Shown here one piece after another: positions 2,274 through 53,661 of a stretch of 59,749 nt of DNA (the first letter of the stretch is position 1; every line of letters starts with the position of its first letter). The position numbers and the translations under genes are program-made. Origin of the DNA: a virus. The DNA is taken from the UHGV virus genome UHGV-0185078. The stretch is one strand, 5' to 3'. Under the pieces are notes generated by a model. That model saw only the letters and a program-made list of their open reading frames with translations, did no database searches and was not told the origin of the DNA.

Positions 2274-5200
2274 TGGCCGAAACTGCTTCGCTAGTAATCA
2301 GGGTTGACGCGAAAGGGATTAGCACAGCGGACTCCATGCTGCGTAACCTTGCGCGTACAGGTGACACAGCGGAGCGTTCCGCTCAACGTGTCACATCCAG
2401 CTATAAAACATTGTCTAACACATCTAACGAACTTGCAACTGTCACAAGTCGTTTAGATGCTGCAATTGTAGGAATGATCAGCGTTGACACCATTAACCGT
2501 GTTATTTCGCTATCGGACTCCTGGACTATCCTCACCAACAAACTTGAACTGGCTCGTACGGGTAATGAAACCGTTGCGGATGCACAGCAACGCGTGTTTG
2601 ATATTGCCCAGCGGTCACGTACAAGCTTGGAAGCAACTGCAACTCTATATTCCCGTCTCCAGCGTGCAATGAAGAATACTGGTATGACGGGTATGGAGCT
2701 TGGACGTATCACTGAAACAATCAACAAAGCGATGATTGTTTCCGGTGCAACATCACATGAAGCAAGCGCTGCCCTTATTCAGTTTTCGCAAGCAATGGCA
2801 TCCGGTGTTCTGCGAGGGGATGAATTCCGTTCTGTTGCAGAACAAGCCCCGCGCTTAACGCAAATTATGTCCGATGCGTTAGGTGTTACCATTGGACAAT
2901 TGCGTGAAATGGCCTACAGTGGCAAGTTAACCGCCGATGTGGTTATCAAATCGTTGTCTGGTGCTGCGGATACAATTGATAAAGAATTTAGCCGCACTAT
3001 GCCAACGTTCAACCAGCAATGGACGGTCGCAACAAATAACCTGACTAAGTTTATGGGCGAATCCCAAAAGACTCAGGGTGCGGTTGCTGCATTGGGACAG
3101 ACGTTTGTTGCATTATCCGGAAACTTAGGAACGGTTGTAACGGTTGGTTCAGCTTTAGCCACAGTAATTACCGCCCGTATCATCACCGCAATGCTTGCTA
3201 AGACTAAAGCGTCTATAGCTGCTGCAAAAGCATCTCAGATGGAAGCTGCACAGACTGCGGCAACTACTGCGGTAATGCAAAGCTCTATTGGCGTTACTGC
3301 ACAGAAAGCGGCTGCGGATCGTGCTGCTTCGCTTGCGGCGTTACAGGTTGCTCGCGGGTCATTAGCGGTTGCTAAAGGTACGGCAGCGGAAGCAGGTGCA
3401 CGTCTTGCGCTTATTAACGCTACTCGTGCGCATTCTGCGGCAATTATGGCGGACGTACAAGCGCGGCAAGCGCTCAATGCTGCTCTTAATGCAACTGTAC
3501 CAGCGGCAAGCCGAGCCGCTACAGCAATGAGCGTGCTGCGCGGTGCTATGGGGTTAATTGGCGGTCCTGTTGGTGTAGCAATGCTGGCAGCGGGTGCAAT
3601 TTACTCCTATAAAGCGTCGCTGGAAGCTGGTCGTGCGGAAAACAATCAGTTTGCGGATAGTGTTGATACTGTACGCGATAAACTGATGCAGATGACAGAA
3701 GCTCAGTTAGCTGCTAACGCAGTTAAAGCTCGCGCAATTCTCCCCGAACTTGAAGAGCAAATGAAGCGGGAGCAAACTGCTCTTAAATCTGCAACGGAAA
3801 CGCAGAAGTTCTATGAAGCGCAATTAAAACGTCGTGCTGCGTCCGGTCGTGATACAGCCAGTGCTGAAAAGAATTTACAAATTGCAACGGATAACGTCAA
3901 GCTTGCTGCTGAACGTGCTGAAGAAGCTCAACGTCGTTACAACAATGTCTTAGAAATGACAAGCCCTGCTATCGAGAAGATAATCCCGTTAGCTCGTCAG
4001 CTTGCAGCGGATATGAAAGCAGTGCTTAATATCAAATCCGGTCCGCTTATTGACGAGAAAGTGCTTGATCGTTTTAAAGGTCAGTTAGGTGACGTTAACC
4101 GTGAGATTGACGTCAACACGGTTAAAGGTGCTGGTAACGCTCGCCAGGCTGCAATCCTTAGTGGGCTGTATCAAACTCTGGGCAAAGATGCAGACACCTA
4201 CGGAAGTCTTATTCGCAAAGTAGCTATGGGTCAGGACGTTAGCTCAGAGGCAACAAGCGAATCTGCTAAAGAGCTTGTTAAATATGCTCAAGATTTAGCC
4301 CAAGCTCTTGGCAAAAACTACGATCTTGAAGAAGCAGAGAGAAACCGGACTAAAGCTACAAAAGACGCTATTAAGGCGCATCAACAAAACGCTAAGGTTA
4401 TTGACGATTTACGAAACAAGCTTAACGAAGTAACCACAGGGGTTAAGGAAAACGCCAAAGCGAAAGCGCAAGCGGTGGCACTTAATAAGCTCAATGCGTC
4501 TGCAACGGCTGCGGAAAAAGAGGAAGTTGTTAGACTTGCTGCTGCAATCTACGATGCAGAAGAAGCTCAAAAGAAACTGGACGAGCGTAAGAAGAACCGT
4601 AAGTTTGCTCAGGGTCTGTTAGATGAAGGTATGACAGACTATGAAAAAATCGCGTACGAGCAAAATACAAAGATTGCAGAGCTTAATGCAAAACAGCGAG
4701 CTGATGATTTAGCTTACTATCAGCTTTACGAAGATGCTAAAACCCAAGTCCTGAAGAAAGCAAGCATGGAAAGGGAAAATCTGGATAAAGTTCTTATGAA
4801 CCGAATGATATCCTTTTCTCAGGAATCCTTAGGCATTATAATGGATGGACTGTCACAGGCTGTAAGCCAGCAGAACTTCTTTTATAAAGCTATGTTTGCA
4901 GCACAGAAAGCAATGCAAATCCCGTCAATCCTTGCTAACACGGAAACGGCAGCATCCGCGGCGCTTGCATGGGGTACACAGCAAGGCGGTGCTACAATGG
5001 GCGCAACAATGGCAGCTATAGTGAAAACTATGGGCTATGCGTCAGCAGCTACTGTGGGTGGCTTAGCAATTGCTGGTATGGCTCACGACGGTATTGATAA
5101 CGTTCCGCGTGAAGGTACATGGTTGCTGGATAAGGGCGAACGTGTACTTAATGCTCCGTCTAATGACAAGTTAAATCGCTTCCTGGATAGCCAAGCTTCA

Positions 5201-30739: not shown

Positions 30740-31624
30740 TTACTGCTGCCACGGCGGGACTGCTGCTTGTGCCGGATGGGGTTCAGCTTGCTGCTGTGGC
30801 TGCGCTTGCTGCTGCGGTGCTGCTGCCTGGCCCGGCTGCGCTACCTGTTGCGCCCACGGTTGCTGAGCTGCTTCCGGCGCTACTGGTTGTTGTACCGGAG
30901 CTTGCTGAACTGGCTGCTGTGGCGCTGCGTTTTGAGCAGGGTTATCCCACGGCTGCGGTGCAGCATTCTGCCACGGTTGAGCTGCTGCGCCCTGCTGCGG
31001 TGCTGGTTGCTGCTGCACAGGCTGCTGAACTGGCTGCTGTTGCTGTACCGGAGCTTGCTGCTGTACAGGCGCTTGCTGTTGCTGAGCAAACGGGTTAGCT
31101 GCTGACTGCTGTGGCGCTGCGCCTGGGAAAGTCGGTTGCTGTGCTGGCGCACCTGCACCAAACGGGTTAGCTACTGCTGGAGCACCCATTGATGGAGCCT
31201 CTGCTGCTTTTTCTGCATATTTAACCGGATCGTTGATGTTAGCGTAACCGTTAGGCTCGTTGCTGTCTTCATAACCTTCCTGAGAACGAACTTTCAGACG
31301 CAGGTTCAGCGGAATGTTATGCAGTTGCGCAGGAGTATCCCAGCGAATTACACCAACTGCATGAGACAGAGCGCCCAGTTGCTCGTAAGCGATACGCACA
31401 GTATCTTCGTTGTCATTGATGACGTTATAACGAGCAAAGATTTTACGCCCTTTAGCAAAACCGTCAATGATGCTAAACGTTGCCTGGATCGCCATACCGC
31501 CATTTTTGGTCGGTTTAAATTCAGATGCTTCAATTACTGCTTTATACCAACCTTTCGGCAATGCGCCGTAAGAAGGTGCTTGATAGCTGCTCGCGTCAAA
31601 GTGGAAATTAGTTGGCATAGTCAT
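30740..31624 (-). CDS. putative ssDNA-binding protein with long Gln/Pro/Ala-rich C-terminal tail
   Basis: 294 aa; N-terminal globular part then about 160 aa of A/P/Q low complexity with PWQ/PWD repeats ending PPWQQ; adjacent to Sak4-like ATPase. Confidence 0.45.
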   Translation of the reverse strand: MTMPTNFHFDASSYQAPSYGALPKGWYKAVIEASEFKPTKNGGMAIQATFSIIDGFAKGRKIFARYNVINDNEDTVRIAYEQLGALSHAVGVIRWDTPAQLHNIPLNLRLKVRSQEGYEDSNEPNGYANINDPVKYAEKAAEAPSMGAPAVANPFGAGAPAQQPTFPGAAPQQSAANPFAQQQQAPVQQQAPVQQQQPVQQPVQQQPAPQQGAAAQPWQNAAPQPWDNPAQNAAPQQPVQQAPVQQPVAPEAAQQPWAQQVAQPGQAAAPQQQAQPQQQAEPHPAQAAVPPWQQ

Positions 31625-38857: not shown

Positions 38858-38883
38858 AAGGGCCTTTCGGCCCTTTATTTATT
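38858..38883. terminator. bidirectional terminator between small + gene and primase gene
   Basis: aaagggcc-tttc-ggcccttt perfect hairpin flanked by A and T runs. Confidence 0.7.
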
Positions 38884-41221
38884 CCTCTTCACCTAAGTTT
38901 GCCATAATTCCTTCAACATCTTGCGTAATGCGCCAAGCTGCCCCAGTAAATCCCAGTTTAATAGTCTCCTCCCGTGTTACCGGAACAAGGGCCCCCATAG
39001 CAACCATTTCCTTGATCGTAGACTCGATCGCTGCGGACAATCCGTGGTGATAGTTTTTAAACGCGGACTTACTTGCAAGACGCGTAGTAATATCCCCCCG
39101 CGTGATAATACCTTCTTTACGTAGATCTACACGTTTAACTTTCACCCAATCTTTAGTTAGATAATTCACACAAACCTGGCACATAGTACGGATACGAGCT
39201 TCGTCATTAGTACCAATACCCCCGCTATGCCATTCCTTCATAATGATATCCTGTCCATGGCGCACAAAGTCCAAGGCCCATTGAACATGATAGGTCTGCA
39301 CAACTGGATTGATCCAATTTTCTCCCACAGCTAACAGGGCGGATAGACGTAATACCTTCAGGTGTGCACGGTTCCATGGCTGACGGATTGCTTCATCTTT
39401 GGTTGCGTTAATATTACGGTCGCATTCATCGTTAAACTGATCACATAATGCTTCAGCATCCGGACTAAACTGCACTTCAATACTTTGATGCTTTGCCATT
39501 GCGACTAAGGTGTGGTTAACAAGATGGCACACCATATCCCGCAAATGCTGATCCATTGTAGTCTGCTGGTTCTTGTTTAAAGGCGGTCGATCCCCTTCAT
39601 AGCGGACAACATGGAAACGGGATAAGAAACCATCCTCCATCATTTCACGGGTTAATGCTTCAAAGAACGTATCCGGTGTCGTTTCGCCCATGATGCTATA
39701 TGCCACACCTTGTTGAGCTTCCGTATTATTAGCCTTATCAGAATAAGACATACCACCAACAATAGACATCTGACCGGACTTTTGATAAACATCGGTAAGG
39801 TCATTCTTGAAGCTTTGCATTGGTGAACCTGCTGGTGCCGTAGCCATTGCTTTAATAATCTTACCAAACTCACCGTTCAAGTTGATAAAAGATTGTTTGT
39901 CCGCAAAAGATTTACGCAGTGCGGAGCCGGAAGCGCATCGGTCAAAAGATACAAAGCTATGAATCTGCGGGAACGGTTCCTGAAGCTGGCTAACTATATT
40001 AGATAGCCCACTGTTCAACGTTTCTTTACCAACACCAGAACGAGCAATAAGGACGAAATATCCATTAAGACCAGATTGCGGAATCTGCCAGACCTTCCCG
40101 CATACCCCAGCCATAAAGCCTAGCGCTGTCACAATAGAAATTTCTTTCACTGGTCGGACGGATGCTTTGTAGATGTACTTCGCAAGCTCCCCAGCAAGCC
40201 CCGGCGGCCAGTCAATAGCGGTTGCATCAATAGATGTACTTTCTGCAACTACGGTCTGCCCCTGAGTTGTTTCAACAGTTACGGGCATTTCCGCTACCTG
40301 CTGCATTGCACTGTGTGCAGCTTGCATACGGGCAGCATAATCCCGCGCCAGCGCAGCTACGTTTTCCTGGGCAATGCGCTCACGCTCCATGCGTCCGCGA
40401 CACATACGCAAGCAACGGTCAATATGAACATTGTTCTTATTAGCCTTCTCACGTTTGCCCAGTGCACTGTAACGGAACAGACGACGGCATTGCTCATTAC
40501 TTTCCGTGTAAAATGCATACATAGAAATAAGGGCAAGGTCTGCTTCAGACTGGGAAGGGAAACCCATTTCAACCCATTCACCATTGAATAACCGTGAATA
40601 CTTATCGCCGTTATCTGCTTCAAGTGCGCGCTGATGAATAGTTGCATCATCTTCTACCGGATCTTTTTCTACCAGTTCAATTTCATATGTCTTGCGCTGA
40701 AGATCAATTTCATTCACAAGCATAGTAAGGTAATGATCACGTTCGGCAACTGATTTATTGTAGACAGGATTGCCCGTGCAGATAATAAAACGCTCCTGAC
40801 TATAAACCTCGACACCATCACGTCGACGACCTTTACCGATGTTACCTCTTAACCACAGGTGAACACCTAAGCCTGAGCGACTTACTTCGGTGTAAGTATC
40901 GAACGCAGTCATGATCTGTTCGAAGCGGCGCAACTGTTCCGGCGTCGTGTGCTTCTTGGGATCCGGTTCATTGGTTGCGTTCTTCACATCCAGGTCGATG
41001 CAGGTGAACGGGTCTTGTGCAGTAAGCACGAATCCAATATAAGGTTTATTGAAATGAGCGGCGCAACCTTTGGCAGCTTCAAACGTCATAAGCATATCCG
41101 GATCGGTAACGTCCGCCGCCATCAAACGTCCAATATCGCTATCCCATACCAACGGCTTTTTATCCGCATCGGCGACCGCCCATTGTGGGAAAGCTTTAAT
41201 TTCAGCGGGAAACAGTTCCAT
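38879..41221 (-). CDS. DNA primase (AEP/prim-pol-like N-terminus) fused to P-loop helicase domain
   Basis: 780 aa; N-terminal GLGVHLWLRG-type primase signature; Walker A-like ARSGVGKET in the second half. Confidence 0.6.
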   Translation of the reverse strand: MELFPAEIKAFPQWAVADADKKPLVWDSDIGRLMAADVTDPDMLMTFEAAKGCAAHFNKPYIGFVLTAQDPFTCIDLDVKNATNEPDPKKHTTPEQLRRFEQIMTAFDTYTEVSRSGLGVHLWLRGNIGKGRRRDGVEVYSQERFIICTGNPVYNKSVAERDHYLTMLVNEIDLQRKTYEIELVEKDPVEDDATIHQRALEADNGDKYSRLFNGEWVEMGFPSQSEADLALISMYAFYTESNEQCRRLFRYSALGKREKANKNNVHIDRCLRMCRGRMERERIAQENVAALARDYAARMQAAHSAMQQVAEMPVTVETTQGQTVVAESTSIDATAIDWPPGLAGELAKYIYKASVRPVKEISIVTALGFMAGVCGKVWQIPQSGLNGYFVLIARSGVGKETLNSGLSNIVSQLQEPFPQIHSFVSFDRCASGSALRKSFADKQSFINLNGEFGKIIKAMATAPAGSPMQSFKNDLTDVYQKSGQMSIVGGMSYSDKANNTEAQQGVAYSIMGETTPDTFFEALTREMMEDGFLSRFHVVRYEGDRPPLNKNQQTTMDQHLRDMVCHLVNHTLVAMAKHQSIEVQFSPDAEALCDQFNDECDRNINATKDEAIRQPWNRAHLKVLRLSALLAVGENWINPVVQTYHVQWALDFVRHGQDIIMKEWHSGGIGTNDEARIRTMCQVCVNYLTKDWVKVKRVDLRKEGIITRGDITTRLASKSAFKNYHHGLSAAIESTIKEMVAMGALVPVTREETIKLGFTGAAWRITQDVEGIMANLGEEE

Positions 41222-41232
41222 GATTTATCCTT

Positions 41233-41448
41233 TTACTGAGAACTAACCATTGCACAACCGATAGCAGCAAATAAGTGCTTCTTAGTCTCATTGATCACTT
41301 TCTCTGCATCCAGATAGCTCTCATAATGTCCAAGGTAAACAATAGTCCCTACAACCATAATATAAGCTGTGCGGTAATGCATGTAATGACCAATGAACCA
41401 TCCCTGCTCCCGAAGCTTATTTTGTCCAACTTCACTAAGTACCATCAT
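41233..41448 (-). CDS. hypothetical small protein
   Basis: 71 aa ORF with one hydrophobic segment. Confidence 0.35.
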   Translation of the reverse strand: MMVLSEVGQNKLREQGWFIGHYMHYRTAYIMVVGTIVYLGHYESYLDAEKVINETKKHLFAAIGCAMVSSQ

Positions 41449-41648
41449 GACCTCCGACGCTTATCGCCTTGCATCTTTTCCAGGGCGGGTACTGCTAAGG
41501 AACGTTTGTAGATGTACTGGTTAGCAATTCTAATAGCGCCCGGGATGCTGTCACGTATGCGCGACATCTTAAACTTAGATATACCGTAACGGTCTTCAAT
41601 TTCCGCCGCCGTTATGTAGTTCAAATCAAATTCCGATTCGTGATCCAT
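41445..41648 (-). CDS. small DNA-binding protein (helix-turn-helix-like)
   Basis: Start set to ATG 41648 (GGAGG RBS 6 nt upstream); ITAAEIEDRYGISKFKMSRIRDS resembles an HTH. Confidence 0.4.
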   Translation of the reverse strand: MDHESEFDLNYITAAEIEDRYGISKFKMSRIRDSIPGAIRIANQYIYKRSLAVPALEKMQGDKRRRS

Positions 41649-41713: not shown

Positions 41714-42442
41714 TTATTGCGGAGTTGTGATAATATGGTTACCAACTTCTAACATAACGTCCTGTGGCTCCCTTCCCTGTCTTAAGCTAATGAGCCAATT
41801 ATCAATATTGGGAAGAATATTTTTAGCCTGCTCAGAATCCCTGTATAGTGCAAGGTCTACCCATTGAGCCCCAAGCTTCACACGTATAGCGGTAGCGGTT
41901 TCGTAATGGTGCAGGGAACAGGTAGGCCAGCGACCGCGATTATCCCAATCCTGGATATCGCCGCTCCGGCGCATCCTGTACCAACGATGTGTCAATTTAT
42001 CCGCTTCCTTATCTGTCAGAGGATCCCCTTTAAGCAAAGCTTGGCGCTGTATCCAGGCCTTAAGTTCGGCGTTCTCCTTGCGCCCTGTTTTACCCTTATC
42101 CACTTTTACCTTCAGTGCTTCTTCATATGGGTCGTTACCCTTGCCCATGTGGTAATTGAATTTGCCCGTATAGCTGCGAAGCTCTTTGGCGTCCATCTCA
42201 TGCCCCAGCTTATCGCTAACCCATGCAAGGAAAGCCGCCCGCTCTGCATCCAGCTTACCTGCTTTTTGTCTTACCGCTTTTTTAACTGGTTGCTCCACAT
42301 CTTCGTTGAAGTAATCCTCCACCATAGCAAGCGCCTGAGCCTTAGTGGGCGCGCCCCGTAACCGCGAGCACGCTTGCACGACCCAGGCGGCAAAGCACAA
42401 ATCCTTAACCACAGTTTTAGATGTAATAGTTTCTTCGCTCAT
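41714..42442 (-). CDS. hypothetical protein, first gene downstream of the iteron region (candidate replication initiator or regulator)
   Basis: 242 aa; AGGAGG RBS; transcribed from a promoter that overlaps an iteron. Confidence 0.5.
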   Translation of the reverse strand: MSEETITSKTVVKDLCFAAWVVQACSRLRGAPTKAQALAMVEDYFNEDVEQPVKKAVRQKAGKLDAERAAFLAWVSDKLGHEMDAKELRSYTGKFNYHMGKGNDPYEEALKVKVDKGKTGRKENAELKAWIQRQALLKGDPLTDKEADKLTHRWYRMRRSGDIQDWDNRGRWPTCSLHHYETATAIRVKLGAQWVDLALYRDSEQAKNILPNIDNWLISLRQGREPQDVMLEVGNHIITTPQ

Positions 42443-42463
42443 AAATCCTCCTAGTGAACTGGT

Positions 42464-42740
42464 AATGCCACTATAAAACAGCTATTAGCTATTTGCAAGA
42501 ATTGTTTTAATATAGTGCTTAGTGGCGTACATAGTGGGCAAAACGTGTATAGTACGTCGTTACTGGCTTTGTAAAAGTTTGCCACTATAAACCACTATCC
42601 CACTATCCACTAATTTTTTATTTTTACACAGAGCAAAGTTTATAAGTTTACGGTTTCCCCCTTATTACCCCGTTTTCAAACAAAGAATTAGTAGTAGTAG
42701 TGAAAACGTGTAAATGCCACTATCACTACTATACTATTAA
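42464..42740. repeat. iteron cluster, repeated (G)CCACTAT motif in both orientations
   Basis: gccactataaa (42467), inverted atagtgc/tagtggc/atagtggg (42512-42538), tandem gccactataaa-ccactatcc-cactatcc-actaa (42581-42613), gccactatcactactatactatt (42716-42738). Confidence 0.55.
42470..42498 (-). promoter_or_regulatory. candidate sigma70-like promoter for gene 41714-42442, overlapping an iteron
   Basis: Minus strand TTGCAA-17-TATAGT, then AGGAGG RBS and ATG; the -10 is the reverse complement of the CCACTAT iteron. Confidence 0.45.
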
Positions 42741-42769
42741 TTATCTGAAAAAAGTTGGGAGTATACCCC

Positions 42770-42935
42770 TATAAACTTATAAACTTTCAGTCAACTAACT
42801 AAAATAAACCAAATTAAACTAATATTAATAATAACTATAAATATATATAAAATAAGGATTTATTATTATTGTATATAGTACCTATTGGTATTATGTGATG
42901 AGTTTATAGTCACTAAATAAACTCTATAAATTTTA
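42770..42935. other. strongly AT-rich tract with ATAAAC repeats (candidate DNA unwinding element)
   Basis: About 165 bp of mostly A/T with repeated ataaac/ataaat motifs immediately beside the iteron cluster. Confidence 0.5.
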
Positions 42936-43110
42936 ATAAACCTGAACGGATGCAGATCAAAAACGAGAAGTCAAGTGCTTTTGAGGGAAATTTATTGAAC
43001 TATTGTGATCGAAAGGTATATCAAGCTATAATGCGCTTAATCGCGGAGTATTGGAGGAGGACTTTATTGCGCGGTTAACCGGACCAGTTGGAGGGCTGAC
43101 CCGGTTGGAG

Positions 43111-43440
43111 TTAAAGTTCGGTGATTTGGTAAAGGCTAATAGTGTCGTTGGACATTACGCCGGACAGGATGCCGTTCGTCCAGTTTATGCAGTAAGGCGA
43201 ATGTAACGTGTTATGCATGAAGTAAAGGTCGTTATTGATAATGCTTCGCATCGGCTGTACTGCAATAAGGTTGTCTTCTAAAACGTGCTTTACATAGTCG
43301 TCATTAGGAATAGTAAAGCTGTCTTTAAACTTGCCGAACATTGGCGTTAATTTTACAAGGCGACCTTTTTGTTCAACCTTGTATACGTTCTTGCGGAAGA
43401 ACTGACCGTGTTCAATATAGCTGCGTACGAAACTAGTCAT
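43111..43440 (-). CDS. hypothetical protein
   Basis: 109 aa ORF. Confidence 0.4.
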   Translation of the reverse strand: MTSFVRSYIEHGQFFRKNVYKVEQKGRLVKLTPMFGKFKDSFTIPNDDYVKHVLEDNLIAVQPMRSIINNDLYFMHNTLHSPYCINWTNGILSGVMSNDTISLYQITEL

Positions 43441-43551: not shown

Positions 43552-43604
43552 GTTTGTATCCTCAGGTTGTTGAGGGCTCCCGCAGAAGCCGATGTGGTTA
43601 TCGA

Positions 43605-44458: not shown

Positions 44459-44795
44459 GGTCTAACCCTTAATGTGGTTAAGCAGTATTGCTTTGTTGAA
44501 GTAATAATAGCCTTGCATCGTGATATTGAATAGGCCAAAAGTGCTATTTTAGATCACTATTACATCTACAGCTTTGCAGTAACGCTACGCTAAAAATGCA
44601 AAGTTTTACGTTTGCTAAACATGTAGATTTTGTGCTCATCCCTCTTAGTACGTATAACGTCTATTATGTTAAATAGCTAAGTTATTGATTTATGGTAAAT
44701 CTTGTATCAATTTGGACGTTATAGGCGTCTAACGTATTGATTTATAAGGGTGTAAAATTTTGCTGTTTGTAGCGCATAAAAAGGAACAAACCGGG

Positions 44796-45600: not shown

Positions 45601-45774
45601 ACCTTCTTTTTGAATATATTGCGCTCATCCTTTCTAAATATATGGATTTTGGTAGTAAATTCTAAGTCGTCAACGTATAATTCGTCTTGTAGCTGCTCCA
45701 TAGCTACCATCTTTAAGCGGATGCAACCAATTTCTATCAATTCACACCTGTTTTTAGAGCATCAAGGAGGTATT

Positions 45775-51566: not shown

Positions 51567-52124
51567 ATGAACGGGGCAAGTCAAGAGCAATATGATCGTG
51601 ACTGGACGAATTACATCCAGTATGCAAATAGCTTGTCCGCTGAAGAGATGGCAATACGTGACAAAGTTGTTGCTGAGTACATGTTCGACTACAATTGGAC
51701 TAACGCTTGCATGAGATGCGGGTTCAATGCTATGTTTGCACAGGAGCTTGGCCAACGCTTTGCCACGGACTGTTATGTTCGATGGAAGCTCAAGGAGATT
51801 GAAAGATCCCGTGTTCAACGTACTTCTGAGCAAGCTAACATTGAAGCAGACCTTGAGCGTCAGCATATCATTGAAGCATTAAAACGTGAAGCTCATTATA
51901 CAGGACCGGGGTCTTCTCAAGCTGCTAGAGTCGCTGCATTGGGCAAGCTTGCACAAATTTATGATTTGGATGCTCCCAAGAAGGCTAAGATTGATGTTAC
52001 TAACAGAGGCGGCGTAATGATAGTCCCTGCTGTAGCAAATATTGACGAATGGGAAAAAACTGCATCCGAGTCTCAACAACGACTAGTTAAAGAGACTGAA
52101 GATGGAGCTAAACCGACAACCTGA
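51567..52124 (+). CDS. terminase small subunit
   Basis: 185 aa ORF directly upstream of, and overlapping, the large terminase gene. Confidence 0.55.
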   Translation: MNGASQEQYDRDWTNYIQYANSLSAEEMAIRDKVVAEYMFDYNWTNACMRCGFNAMFAQELGQRFATDCYVRWKLKEIERSRVQRTSEQANIEADLERQHIIEALKREAHYTGPGSSQAARVAALGKLAQIYDLDAPKKAKIDVTNRGGVMIVPAVANIDEWEKTASESQQRLVKETEDGAKPTT

Positions 52125-53661
52125 TAACATGCCGCGAGTAGTCTGGAAGCCACATCCAGGTTCACAGACGCTCGCTTTATCCTGTCCTGCTGATATCATT
52201 TTATACCACGGTACTCGCGGTCCTGGAAAGACGGACTGTCAGCTTATGCGTTTCCGTAAGAATGTTGGCGTAGGGTACGGTAAATTCTGGAAGGGTATTA
52301 TATTCGACCGTGAATATAAAAACCTTGATGACCTTGTAACTAAGTCACAGCGTTGGTTTCCTGAATTTAAAGACGGTGCTAAATTCCTTAGTTCCAAGTC
52401 TGATTATAAATGGGTTTGGCCTACTGGGGAAGAATTGCTGTTCCGTGTTGCTTGCAAAGAAAAGGATTATTGGTCTTATCATGGTCACGAATACCCGTTT
52501 ATCGGATGGAACGAATTAACAAAGTATCCGGACGGGCGTTTGTTTGAAGCAATGATGTCCTGTAACCGTTCATCATTCCTACCCGAAGATAATCCAATCA
52601 TCAATCCGGACGGTACTGTCACATATTTACCAGACATTCCTCTGGAAGTGTTTGCCACCAGTAACCCGTTTGGCGCGGGGCATAACTGGGTTAAGAAACG
52701 CTTCATTGACGCTGCACCGATGGGTAAAATACTCAGGAAAACTACGCGAGTGTTTAACCCGCGGACGCAGAAAGAGGAAGATGTGGTTACGACGCAATGC
52801 CATATCTTCGGATCTTACCGTGAGAACAAAAACCTGAGCCCGAAATATATTGCAGAGCTTATGTCCATCACAGACCCGAACAAACGAGCTGCATGGTTAG
52901 GCGGTAGCTGGGATATCACCTCCGGCGGTATGTTCGATGATCTGTGGCGTAGCACTGTTCATAAAATACGCCCATTCCCAATCCCATCAAGCTGGAAGAT
53001 TACACGTTCTTTCGACTGGGGTTCTTCAAAACCATTCTCCGTTGGCTGGTGGGCTATTAGTGACGGTTCGGATGTTATACGTGAAGATGGTACTACATTC
53101 TCTACTGTTCGCGGTGACTTATTCCGTATTAACGAGTGGTACGGCACTAATGGTAAAACAAACGAAGGTCTACATTTGCTGGACTCAGAGATTGCAAGCG
53201 GTATACTGGAGCGGGAATTGGCCTGGGGTATACACGACCGTGTAGTTCCCGGACCTGCGGATAACTCTATTTGGGATCTGGAGAACAATAACTCTACCGC
53301 CGCAACAATGGCGAAGAAAATCCGTCTTAACGGCAAGCTGTATAACGGTATTCATTGGAAGAGAAGTGATAAATCTGCTGGGTCGCGTAAACGCGGATGG
53401 CAGAAAATGCGTGAGTTTCTTAAAGCTGCATTGCGGGAAGATGCAAACGGTAAACCTTTGCCGGGACCACGTGAAAATCCAGCAATGTATGTTTTTGATA
53501 ACTGCAATTATTTCTTTGAACTTGTTCCAAGTCTTCCGCGCGATGAAGTAGATCAGGACGACGTTGATACGGAATGTGAAGACCATATGGGCGATGAAGT
53601 ACGTTATATGGTTCTGGATCAAGCTGTTTATACAGGTGTCGGTAAAACTATCGGTATTTAA
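52102..53661 (+). CDS. terminase large subunit
   Basis: 519 aa; P-loop YHGTRGPGKTD; acidic nuclease-domain motifs in C-terminal half; followed by portal gene. Confidence 0.85.
   Translation: MELNRQPDNMPRVVWKPHPGSQTLALSCPADIILYHGTRGPGKTDCQLMRFRKNVGVGYGKFWKGIIFDREYKNLDDLVTKSQRWFPEFKDGAKFLSSKSDYKWVWPTGEELLFRVACKEKDYWSYHGHEYPFIGWNELTKYPDGRLFEAMMSCNRSSFLPEDNPIINPDGTVTYLPDIPLEVFATSNPFGAGHNWVKKRFIDAAPMGKILRKTTRVFNPRTQKEEDVVTTQCHIFGSYRENKNLSPKYIAELMSITDPNKRAAWLGGSWDITSGGMFDDLWRSTVHKIRPFPIPSSWKITRSFDWGSSKPFSVGWWAISDGSDVIREDGTTFSTVRGDLFRINEWYGTNGKTNEGLHLLDSEIASGILERELAWGIHDRVVPGPADNSIWDLENNNSTAATMAKKIRLNGKLYNGIHWKRSDKSAGSRKRGWQKMREFLKAALREDANGKPLPGPRENPAMYVFDNCNYFFELVPSLPRDEVDQDDVDTECEDHMGDEVRYMVLDQAVYTGVGKTIGI

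What the first reader, a model, noticed from the sequence alone, without database searches (positions are those of the whole stretch)
42464..42935. Candidate replication origin or master control region: CCACTAT iterons in both orientations next to a 165-bp AT-rich tract
A 670-bp ORF-free region carries at least eight copies of (G)CCACTAT, including a tandem array at 42581-42613 and inverted copies at 42512-42538, followed by a run of almost pure A/T with ATAAAC repeats. Iterons plus a DNA-unwinding element is the classic origin architecture. One iteron coincides with the -10 of the promoter for the adjacent gene 41714-42442, suggesting autoregulation by an iteron-binding protein. Several repeats (ctatccact, ctatcccac) are also close to the DnaA-box core TATCCAC.
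Basis: seen in the sequence. Interest (0 to 1): 0.6.

Follow-up and report, generated by a model that had tools for sequence, protein, structure and literature searches.

The report
Probable replication origin of a Seuratvirus phage
A 668-base gene-free stretch of this E. coli phage genome has the layout of a DNA replication origin, built from two interleaved sets of short repeats that each change in step with a different neighbouring phage protein; this points to where and how a poorly studied phage group may start copying its DNA.

Summary
The gap 42443-43110 carries 6 of the genome's 9 exact CCACTAT and about 17 copies of the looser Y-ACTA-Y core. Next to them is the most AT-rich stretch of the genome (42771-42940, 16% GC), which also contains the global minimum of cumulative GC skew (42835).

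The window is a Seuratvirus coliphage. Comparing about 25 related genomes shows two interleaved repeat sets.
- Set 1 (CACTAT here; CCCTAT, CCCCTA or GGAATA elsewhere, at the same positions) tracks the adjacent orphan gene 41714-42442 ("A"). It does not track the helix-turn-helix (HTH) protein or the primase.
- Set 2 (AAGTTTA here; AGTTTTG or AATTTTA elsewhere) brackets the AT-rich core as inverted copies. It tracks the variable C-terminus of the primase-helicase (38879-41221), which has an N-terminal primase domain homologous to the self-loading primase-helicase of staphylococcal island SaPI5.

One set-1 copy overlaps the -10 of A's promoter. DnaA-box and IHF matches are absent or not conserved.

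Best reading: a phage origin recognised by two proteins, with an autoregulated promoter. Everything is inferred from sequence; no binding or replication data exist. A purely transcriptional control region remains the main rival.

The parts
42443..43110 (.). Whole 668-bp noncoding gap (candidate origin plus control region)
   Evidence: No conserved ORF. The same gap (about 600-830 bp) is present in all Seuratvirus-like genomes examined.
42470..42498 (-). Promoter P_A for gene 41714-42442: TTGCAA-17-TATAGT. The Shine-Dalgarno AGGAGG lies at 42447-42452.
   Evidence: An equivalent TTGCAA-17-TACCAT is overlapped by CCCTAT-type repeats in CAjan.
42468..42474 (+). Set-1 iteron CCACTAT overlapping the -10 of P_A
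42512..42554 (-). Set-1 cluster A, left arm: four copies in minus orientation (CACTAT 42512, CACTA 42520, CACTAT 42531, TACTAT 42549)
   Evidence: Positionally equivalent to the ATAGGG copies in CAjan and L008.
42582..42612 (+). Set-1 cluster A, right arm: tandem CCACTAT x3 plus CCACTA
42635..42650 (+). Set-2 repeats AAAGTTTATAAGTTTA (two AAGTTTA copies); left arm of a perfect 16-bp inverted repeat
   Evidence: (I4, 100% complementary). The type tracks the primase C-terminus.
42652..42672 (.). C-rich patch GGTTTCCCCCTTATTACCCCG between clusters A and B; present at this relative position in every lineage; role unknown
42689..42737 (.). Set-1 cluster B: TAGTAGTAGTAGTG (minus-orientation copies), a spacer, then CCACTATCACTACTATACTAT (plus-orientation copies)
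   Evidence: In CAjan the same positions read ATAGGGGTACTAGGG ... CCCTATACCCTACTCCCTAT.
42772..42787 (-). Set-2 repeats TAAACTTATAAACTTT; right arm of the 16-bp inverted repeat, abutting the AT-rich core
   Evidence: In SA80RD the two arms are AAAGTTTTGGGTTTTTGG / CCAAAAACCTAAAACTTT, so the inverted repeat is kept with a different sequence.
42771..42940 (.). AT-rich tract (16% GC), the candidate DNA-unwinding element. The core 42788-42895 (17% GC) is conserved as a variant specific to each primase type.
   Evidence: conservation; cumulative GC-skew minimum at 42835.
42900..42924 (.). Set-2-like inverted pair right of the core: GAGTTTA (42900-42906) and TAAACTC (42918-42924)
   Evidence: Type II and III relatives carry their own set-2 type at this place.
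42989..43104 (+). 'Universal block': plus-strand promoter TTGTGA-18-TATAAT (43003-43032) plus a two-hairpin leader, firing away from the AT-rich core
   Evidence: 93-97% identical in all type I and II loci. The same promoter precedes an HNH endonuclease gene in four relatives.
41714..42442 (-). Gene A (242 aa, phrog_27223, orphan family): proposed binder of the set-1 iterons
   Evidence: Covariation. No Pfam family. Only 2 representatives among 1.84 billion proteins. Model pLDDT 76, no confident fold match.
41445..41648 (-). 67-aa HTH protein (phrog_11967). It always sits upstream of the primase gene, also in Vid5 and JenK1, but co-varies with neither repeat set.
38879..41221 (-). Prim-pol / SF3-type helicase (780 aa). 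The last ~120 aa (about 38882-39241) are the variable cassette that tracks the set-2 repeats.
   Evidence: PF22763, PF13148 in homologues, PDB 7OLA hit; C-terminal model pLDDT 91.
42406..42413 (-). TGTGGTTA (minus strand), a candidate prim-pol priming site at the left border of the gap
   Evidence: Present at -551 to -657 from the universal block in all 15 loci checked, and in noncoding DNA in phages that lack gene A. Motif rationale.
43593..43600 (+). TGTGGTTA (plus strand), the first candidate priming site right of the gap. The next one (44473) is also on +.
   Evidence: In 15 of 15 loci the first site right of the gap is on the plus strand.

Best explanation
The gap is most likely the phage's origin of replication, fused to the autoregulated promoter of the replication operon. 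It appears to be recognised by two proteins.

Proposed mechanism:
- Set-1 iterons (CACTAT type) lie in two palindromic clusters plus one copy on the -10 of P_A. They would be bound by protein A, encoded next door. A thereby marks the origin and represses its own promoter.
- Set-2 repeats (AAGTTTA type) bracket the AT-rich core as inverted copies. They would be bound by the variable C-terminal, probably winged-helix, domain of the prim-pol/SF3 helicase. The helicase would load itself on both sides of the core and melt it, as SaPI Rep/PriRep proteins do.
- Two promoters (P_A leftward, the conserved promoter at 43003-43032 rightward) fire away from the core and may help unwinding through negative supercoiling.
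- Candidate priming sites TGTGGTTA face inward on both flanks (42406 on the minus strand, 43593 on the plus strand). Primers laid down there would be extended through the origin.

Shown directly: the repeats, their statistics, their positional conservation, the two independent covariation patterns and the promoter overlap.

Inferred: protein binding, unwinding, priming and origin activity.
For: 1. Non-random clustering of both repeat sets, next to the most AT-rich DNA of the genome.

2. The cumulative GC-skew minimum is at 42835, inside the AT tract. Skew is already positive over 43-45 kb although the genes there are still on the minus strand.

3. Set 1 changes at the same positions in step with gene A:
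- A_win, A_SA80 and A_L011 types go with CACTAY (8-13 copies).
- A_CAjan and A_L008 types go with CCCTAY (12-13 copies).
- A_L013 goes with CCCCTA.
- Phages that carry AP2-like proteins instead of A have GGAATR, or CCCCTATA in yong3.
- Phages whose primases are 98-100% identical carry different iterons, and so do CAjan and L013, whose HTH proteins are 100% identical.

4. Set 2 tracks the primase C-terminal cassette in 10 haplotypes without exception: type I with AAGTTTA, type II with AGTTTTG/CAAAAC, type III (including L114) with AATTTTA. The primase N-terminal coding part lying between the cassette and the gap is 91-100% identical across types, and the A/HTH segment assorts independently.

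5. The primase N-terminal domain matches SaPI5 PriRep5 (7OLA, E = 5e-11). PMC9371898 reports that such self-loading helicases bind 5-6-nt iterons, arranged in opposite orientation on both sides of an AT-rich region, through a C-terminal winged helix. The C-terminal model here (pLDDT 91) returns mostly winged-helix and ORC/Cdc6 DNA-binding domains, though weakly.

6. The region lies at the head of the replication gene cluster: A, HTH and primase, then ligase, helicase, clamp and polymerase.

7. TGTGGTTA sites show a conserved minus-gap-plus orientation in 15 of 15 loci and in yong3.
Against: - No experiment exists. No paper in the held library maps an origin in Seuratvirus or Queuovirinae.
- GC skew largely follows gene orientation. 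The minimum is broad: -549 at 42835 against -524 at 45750.
- The winged-helix assignment for the primase C-terminus is not significant (best Foldseek E = 0.09).
- Covariation of set 2 with the primase rests on only three or four cassette types, and shared ancestry cannot be fully excluded.
- Related phages Vid5 and JenK1, which have homologous primases, show no comparable gap beside the gene.
- Away from the gap, TGTGGTTA sites show no strand polarity.
Confidence: 0.62

Rival explanations
1. A purely transcriptional control region. Protein A is an autoregulating transcription factor, and the repeat arrays are operators or enhancer-like sites for the promoter of the 26-kb leftward DNA-metabolism operon. 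The AT-rich tract is an UP-element or curved DNA, or a transcription boundary between early and middle genes. Replication starts elsewhere or by recombination.
For: - An iteron overlaps the -10 of P_A, and in relatives iterons sit in the spacer and -10.
- In type II phages, set-2 repeats flank P_A.
- The gap separates small early-type genes from the replication genes.
- A covaries with its sites exactly as repressor and operator pairs do.
Against: - About 17 sites spread over 270 bp, reaching 270 bp upstream of the promoter, is far more than promoter control needs.
- No cluster of the motif occurs at any other promoter in the genome.
- A second repeat set brackets the AT core and tracks the helicase C-terminus rather than any regulator.
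- The most AT-rich DNA of the genome and the skew minimum coincide here.
- This rival does not exclude the origin reading; both functions are combined in iteron plasmids.
Confidence: 0.25
2. A packaging (pac/cos) or partition-type site: the repeats are binding sites for the small terminase or for a centromere-binding protein.
For: Arrays of short direct and inverted repeats next to the gene of their binding protein also occur at pac sites and plasmid centromeres (general knowledge).
Against: - TerL is at 52102-53661, so terS lies about 9 kb away.
- Seurat is predicted to package by the headful mechanism, and its record was opened at terS (PMC4342423).
- These are virulent phages with no partition genes.
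- The repeats co-vary with A and the primase, not with packaging genes.
Confidence: 0.03
3. A host-DnaA-dependent origin, as the DnaA-box likeness suggested.
For: CTATCCACT within the tandem array matches 7 of 9 positions of TTATCCACA (read directly from the sequence).
Against: - No match with up to 1 mismatch lies in the gap.
- The resemblance comes from the iteron sequence itself and is lost in CCCTAT- and GGAAT-type relatives.
- The phage encodes its own primase-helicase, polymerase and clamp.
Confidence: 0.02

Closest known systems
SaPI replication origins with Rep / PriRep5 self-loading primase-helicases (PMC9371898; PDB 7OLA)
   Same: - A fused primase and SF3-type helicase with a variable C-terminal domain. 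The N-terminal primase domains are homologous (E = 5e-11).
- Short 6-7-nt repeats in opposite orientation on both sides of an AT-rich region.
- Repeat sequence matched to the helicase C-terminus.
   Different: - Here the origin lies 1.2 kb upstream of the primase gene, not immediately downstream of rep.
- A second, more numerous iteron set and a separate orphan protein (A) are added.
- The winged-helix nature of the C-terminus is not established.
Phage lambda ori and O protein, with the specificity swaps among lambdoid phages (own knowledge; O-iteron binding also in PMC7466680, listed)
   Same: - Iterons next to an AT-rich region.
- A phage-specific initiator whose specificity is exchanged together with its iterons between otherwise similar phages.
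- Dependence on nearby transcription is plausible.
   Different: - Lambda's origin lies inside the O gene and has four 19-bp iterons. Here the region is intergenic, with a 6-7-bp core in inverted clusters.
- A shows no similarity to O.
- The helicase is phage-encoded rather than host DnaB recruited by P.
Satellite phage P4 ori/crr and the alpha protein (own knowledge)
   Same: A primase-helicase with a C-terminal origin-binding domain that recognises short repeats in direct and inverted orientation at two separated sites.
   Different: - P4 needs no second specificity protein.
- The repeats and the protein are unrelated in sequence. P4 alpha has a bacterial-type primase domain, not an AEP prim-pol.
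Papillomavirus origin with E1 helicase and E2 (own knowledge)
   Same: It works like a two-key origin: an SF3 helicase with its own inverted binding sites beside an AT-rich element, plus a separate sequence-specific DNA-binding protein with multiple nearby sites that also regulates transcription.
   Different: Eukaryotic virus, with no homology to A. This is an analogy of mechanism only.
Iteron plasmids (for example pPS10, RK2, P1, F; reviews PMC4980987 and PMC5043065 listed)
   Same: Iterons plus an unwinding element, and autoregulation of the initiator gene through repeats that overlap its promoter.
   Different: - No DnaA boxes are present.
- A is not a winged-helix Rep by sequence.
- The repeats are shorter and arranged as inverted clusters.

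Membership tests
Iteron-type replication origin | Cluster of three or more copies of a short repeat, beyond chance | tested here: met
   8 of 16 CCACTA copies lie in 668 bp (P = 1e-13). No other noncoding cluster exists in the genome.
Iteron-type replication origin | Adjacent AT-rich DNA-unwinding element | tested here: met
   42771-42940 is 16% GC, the lowest in the genome.
Iteron-type replication origin | A cognate initiator encoded nearby whose specificity matches the repeats | tested here: met
   Met at the level of covariation only. Repeat type follows gene A or its AP2-like replacements, and does not follow the HTH protein or the primase.
Iteron-type replication origin | The protein binds the repeats, and the region supports replication | not testable with these tools
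   Needs EMSA or footprinting, an ori-cloning assay and marker-frequency analysis.
SaPI-type origin of a self-loading primase-helicase | Primase fused to an SF3-type helicase | tested here: met
   PF22763, PF13148/DUF3987 in near homologues, 7OLA hit, phrog_3022.
SaPI-type origin of a self-loading primase-helicase | C-terminal winged-helix domain that reads the iterons | tested here: inconclusive
   Model pLDDT 91. The top Foldseek hits are winged-helix, ORC and CodY DNA-binding domains, but the best E is 0.09. The C-terminus is the most variable part of the protein.
SaPI-type origin of a self-loading primase-helicase | Repeats on both sides of the AT-rich region in opposite orientation, matched to the helicase type | tested here: met
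   Set 2: TAAACTT x2 at 42772-42787 against GAGTTTA at 42900-42906. The type follows the primase C-terminus in 10 haplotypes.
SaPI-type origin of a self-loading primase-helicase | [quoted passage not shown] | tested here: not met
   The gap lies upstream of the primase gene, separated from it by A and the HTH gene. A second repeat set tied to A is present.
Lambda-type ori/O | Origin inside the initiator gene; initiator homologous to O | tested here: not met
   The region is intergenic. A has no Pfam, PDB or other homologue.
DnaA-dependent origin | DnaA boxes (TTATCCACA) in the origin | tested here: not met
   No match with up to 1 mismatch in the gap, and the resemblance is not conserved in relatives.
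Operator array of a phage regulator | Binding sites overlap the regulated promoter | tested here: met
   The iteron at 42468-42474 overlaps the -10 of P_A.
Operator array of a phage regulator | Sites at several promoters across the genome (master regulator) | tested here: not met
   The three CCACTAT copies outside the gap are isolated. The best other 300-bp window holds 2 CACTAT.
pac/cos packaging site | Located in or beside the small terminase gene | tested here: not met
   TerL is at 52102-53661; a headful mechanism is predicted for Seurat.

The most novel reading that the evidence does not exclude
Seuratviruses use a modular, two-lock origin. An orphan origin-marking protein (A, or an AP2-domain protein in other lineages) and the helicase's own C-terminal domain each read a separate, interleaved repeat set. 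Both locks are exchanged independently by recombination, producing at least ten replicon-specificity combinations within one genus. This would be a phage counterpart of the papillomavirus E1/E2 arrangement. It may be driven by competition between co-infecting relatives or by pressure from origin-targeting parasites or defences. In addition, the dispersed TGTGGTTA 8-mer (45 copies) would be the genome-wide priming signal of the prim-pol.
Probability: 0.35. Interest if true: 0.7.

Novelty: new variant of a known kind. Interest (0 to 1): 0.5.

Why it matters
Seuratviruses include members of the BASEL reference collection and the 7-deazaguanine model phage CAjan, yet I found no described origin or initiator for them. 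A defined origin with two exchangeable recognition modules would:
- give a function to an orphan protein family (phrog_27223);
- explain a recombination hotspot in these genomes;
- provide parts for phage engineering, such as origin-compatible vectors and incompatibility tests;
- offer a natural system for studying how initiator and origin specificity evolve.

The predictions are cheap to test by gel shift, origin cloning and marker-frequency sequencing.

Tried and rejected
- DnaA boxes: none in the gap. The scan instead uncovered the dispersed TTAACCACA motif.
- IHF consensus: none in the gap.
- Rfam at E up to 1: no RNA family.
- HTH protein as the iteron binder: rejected. CAjan and L013 have identical HTH proteins but different iterons, and the L008 HTH groups with the CACTAT phages.
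- Primase as binder of the CCACTAT set: rejected. Primases 98-100% identical occur with three iteron types.
- afdb50 fold library was unavailable.
- A homologue search with the C-terminal fragment of the primase returned nothing.
- pac site: rejected on position.
- Relatives outside the genus (Vid5, JenK1): no comparable gap next to the primase gene, so the arrangement could not be extended to them.
- E. coli chromosomes and plasmids: no copy of the gap, so no sign of a satellite or plasmid using this origin.
- Strand polarity of TGTGGTTA genome-wide: none (26 plus, 19 minus), so it cannot map fork direction.
- The metagenome pattern scan gave mostly chance hits; 8 loci were kept after a BLAST screen.

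Full report
**What the window is.** The region is 97% identical to Escherichia phages SHIN8 and KurtStettler (Bas22) and matches 34 phage records, almost all of genus Seuratvirus, subfamily Queuovirinae. The finding lies in a 668-bp gap (42443-43110) between two minus-strand genes. To its right is 43111-43440, a 109-aa protein of unknown function. To its left are 41714-42442 (242 aa, here called A), a 67-aa helix-turn-helix (HTH) protein (41445-41648), a 71-aa ORF, and a 780-aa prim-pol/helicase (38879-41221; PF22763 NrS-1-like helix-bundle domain (HBD), phrog_3022). Further left on the same strand are ligase, exonuclease, helicase, DpdA, clamp and DNA polymerase. TerL is at 52102-53661. The gap therefore sits at the head of the replication module, about 9 kb from the packaging genes.

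- Six of the nine exact CCACTAT in 59.7 kb lie in 42468-42723.
- CCACTA occurs 8 times in the gap against 0.09 expected from the rest of the genome (P = 1e-13). CACTAT occurs 7 times (P = 2e-8). No other 300-bp window has more than two, and simulated genomes never exceeded four.
- With the degenerate core Y-ACTA-Y there are about 17 copies. One lies on the promoter, and the rest form two palindromic clusters: A (42512-42554 inverted, 42582-42612 direct) and B (42689-42702 inverted, 42717-42737 direct).
- The AT-rich tract is 42771-42940 (16% GC). It contains the most AT-rich 120-bp window of the genome.
- A scan of every 300-bp window for repeated hexamers found no other noncoding cluster.
- A sigma-70-like promoter TTGCAA-17-TATAGT at 42498-42470 (minus strand) has its -10 inside an iteron.

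**Skew.** The global minimum of cumulative GC skew is at 42835, inside the AT tract. Local skew turns positive there although the genes up to about 44.5 kb are still on the minus strand. The minimum is shallow (-549 against -524 at 45750), and skew in this genome mostly follows gene orientation. This is consistent with an origin but not decisive.

**Comparative anatomy, set 1.** Every Seuratvirus-like genome examined has a gap of about 600-830 bp at this place. At the same positions the repeat sequence differs by lineage:
- CACTAT/ATAGTG in the window, KurtStettler, SeppeHuegi, SA80RD, CSP1C, SA126VB, Dru_SM1 and L011;
- CCCTAT/ATAGGG in CAjan, slur01, SLUR76 and L008;
- CCCCTA in L013;
- GGAATA in GottfriedDienst, Skure, L096 and L114;
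- CCCCTATA in Hafnia phage yong3.

The type follows the gene next to the gap. CACTAT goes with the A_win, A_SA80 and A_L011 alleles. CCCTAT goes with A_CAjan and A_L008. Phages that lack A carry small or mid-sized proteins with an AP2-like DNA-binding end (Gott g69: PF00847 at E = 2e-4, below Pfam's threshold; the L114 195-aa and yong3 207-aa proteins carry AP2-like motifs at their C-terminal ends, judged by eye) together with quite different repeats.

The type does not follow the primase. The window, CAjan and L013 primases are 98-100% identical but sit next to three different iteron types, and L011 and L008 are 99% identical with two types. Nor does it follow the HTH protein. CAjan and L013 share an identical HTH with different iterons, and the L008 HTH groups with the CACTAT phages. 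Protein A, or its replacement, is therefore the best candidate for the set-1 binder.

A belongs to an orphan family. It has no Pfam family, no PDB relative, only 11 clusters in 5.8 billion proteins, and two representatives in 1.84 billion. Its model (pLDDT 76) ends in a three-strand-plus-helix unit with only weak likeness to AP2 or HNH-associated DNA-binding domains.

**Comparative anatomy, set 2.** A second repeat family is interleaved with the first. In the window, AAGTTTATAAGTTTA (42636-42650) and its perfect inverted copy (42772-42787) enclose the C-rich patch and cluster B, and the right-hand copy abuts the AT core. A further inverted pair, GAGTTTA/TAAACTC, lies just right of the core. 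Other lineages carry AGTTTTG/CAAAACT or AATTTTA/TAAAATT at the corresponding places. In SA80RD the long inverted repeat is kept with a different sequence.

Across 24 non-duplicate loci plus L114 (10 distinct haplotypes), this family follows the primase type without exception: type I with AAGTTTA, type II with AGTTTTG, type III with AATTTTA.

[quoted passage not shown] At the nucleotide level, window against SA80RD, the divergent primase 3' part (38900-40300, 47-84%) is flanked by 95-99% identical DNA on one side. On the other side lies the 91-98% identical 5' part of the primase gene. That is followed by the independently assorting HTH and A segment, and only then by the gap. L114 is informative: the middle of its primase is equally close to types II and III, but its C-terminus is 95% type III, and its set-2 repeats are of the type III kind. 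This linkage across recombining DNA argues for co-adaptation between the helicase C-terminus and set 2. With three or four cassette types, however, shared ancestry cannot be fully excluded.

**Precedent.** The primase N-terminal domain matches PDB 7OLA, the PriRep5 primase-helicase of staphylococcal island SaPI5 (E = 4.6e-11). PMC9371898 reports that SaPI Rep/PriRep proteins are self-loading helicases. Their C-terminal winged-helix domain recognises penta- or hexanucleotide iterons. Six to twelve iterons lie on both sides of an AT-rich region, with at least two on each side pointing in opposite directions. Set 2 fits that description. A high-confidence model of residues 600-780 (pLDDT 91) retrieves mostly winged-helix and ORC/Cdc6/CodY DNA-binding domains, but none significantly (best E = 0.09). 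The domain assignment therefore remains open.

**Edges of the gap.** The right-hand 116 bp (42989-43104) are 93-97% identical in all type I and II phages, even where everything around them differs. They hold a strong plus-strand promoter (TTGTGA-18-TATAAT, 43003-43032) and a leader that folds into two hairpins on the plus strand (-28.4 kcal/mol, z = -3.5, against -16.9 on the minus strand). In four relatives the same promoter precedes an HNH endonuclease gene. In the window no conserved ORF follows it. P_A and this promoter point away from the AT core, so both would put negative supercoils into it. This is my inference, by analogy with gidA at oriC.

**Candidate priming sites.** While scanning for DnaA boxes I found that TTAACCACA occurs 25 times and its 8-mer core TGTGGTTA 45 times, against a Markov-3 expectation of about 2.5. 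Mean spacing is 1.34 kb, and it is the commonest 8-mer and 9-mer of the genome. The NrS-1 prim-pol, whose HBD resembles that of this primase, recognises template sequences 5'-TTTGGTTA-3' and 5'-GTGG-3' (PMC8718748). TGTGGTTA is therefore a plausible priming signal.

Genome-wide it shows no strand bias. At the gap, however, its arrangement is conserved. A minus-strand copy lies at the left border in 15 of 15 loci and in yong3: inside the conserved VVK codons of A where A exists, and in noncoding DNA where it does not. The first site to the right is always on the plus strand. Primers made at these two sites would be extended toward and through the AT core.

**Alternatives.**
- A purely transcriptional control region is the main rival. 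It explains the promoter overlap and the covariation of A with its sites. It does not explain the number and spread of the sites, the second repeat set tied to the helicase, or the AT core, and it is compatible with a combined function.
- A packaging site is excluded by position.
- DnaA and IHF involvement finds no support.
- No RNA family matches.
- No copy of the gap exists in E. coli chromosomes or plasmids.
- Related phages outside the genus (Vid5, JenK1) lack a comparable gap beside their primase gene, so the arrangement is specific to the Seuratvirus lineage, including yong3-like phages.

**Verdict.** The region is most likely the replication origin of this phage group, combined with the autoregulated promoter of gene A. 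It is unusual in carrying two interleaved recognition modules that are exchanged independently. None of the Seuratvirus or Queuovirinae papers I searched or opened mentions an origin. Everything beyond the sequence patterns is inference. The proposed gel-shift, origin-cloning and marker-frequency experiments would settle it.

Noticed in passing
whole window; e.g. 186, 5659, 7998, 42406-42413, 43593-43600, 44473: The 8-mer TGTGGTTA occurs 45 times, 25 of them as TGTGGTTAA. This compares with about 2.5 expected. It is on both strands, mostly inside genes, with mean spacing 1.34 kb, and is the commonest 8-mer and 9-mer of the genome. It is also enriched in relatives, including Vid5. It resembles the NrS-1 prim-pol recognition sequences TTTGGTTA and GTGG (PMC8718748), so it may be the priming signal of this phage's prim-pol. 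No phage paper in the held library mentions it.
   Followed up: partly
window 42989-43104: A 116-bp block is conserved at 93-97% across the genus. It holds a strong plus-strand promoter and a two-hairpin leader with GGAGG-type loops, running antisense into the 3' end of gene 43111-43440. In SLUR76, Dru_SM1, L058 and L013 the same promoter drives an inserted HNH homing-endonuclease gene. In the window no conserved ORF follows it. It could be a small RNA, an antisense regulator or an origin activator.
   Followed up: partly
window 42652-42672: A C-rich patch (GGTTTCCCCCTTATTACCCCG) lies between iteron clusters A and B. A run of four or five C is found at the same relative position in every lineage, although the surrounding repeats differ. 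No explanation.
   Followed up: no
L006 3046-3589; L114 3908-4495; L115 3878-4501: In phages without gene A, its place is taken by proteins with an AP2-like DNA-binding end: 93 and 89 aa in GottfriedDienst, 195 aa in L114, 207 aa in Hafnia phage yong3. Each comes with its own iteron type. This looks like non-homologous replacement of the presumed origin-binding protein.
   Followed up: partly
window 44678-44690 and 44730-44742: Two perfect matches to the IHF consensus WATCAANNNNTTR lie 52 bp apart on the minus strand, in the noncoding region where leftward and rightward genes diverge. Only 4 matches occur in the whole genome.
   Followed up: no
window 30951-31250: A dense CAGCAG repeat (10 copies in 300 bp) lies in this 300-bp stretch of the minus-strand gene cluster (about 16-44.5 kb). 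It was the only window with more hexamer copies than the iteron region.
   Followed up: no
L003 (CSP1C, PQ202980.1) 3997-4891: The deposited annotation calls the 67-aa HTH protein a 'redirecting packaging protein' and starts gene A 39 codons late. Other neighbouring names in that record ('maltose-binding periplasmic protein', 'Hfq') look like over-annotation of small ORFs.
   Followed up: no
window 43111-43440: The 109-aa protein to the right of the gap is only about 27% identical to its counterpart in CAjan, GottfriedDienst and CSP1C, which share 92-97% with one another. In SA80RD and SA126VB a 58-aa gene takes its place. This is another freely assorting cassette bounded by the universal block.
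   Followed up: partly
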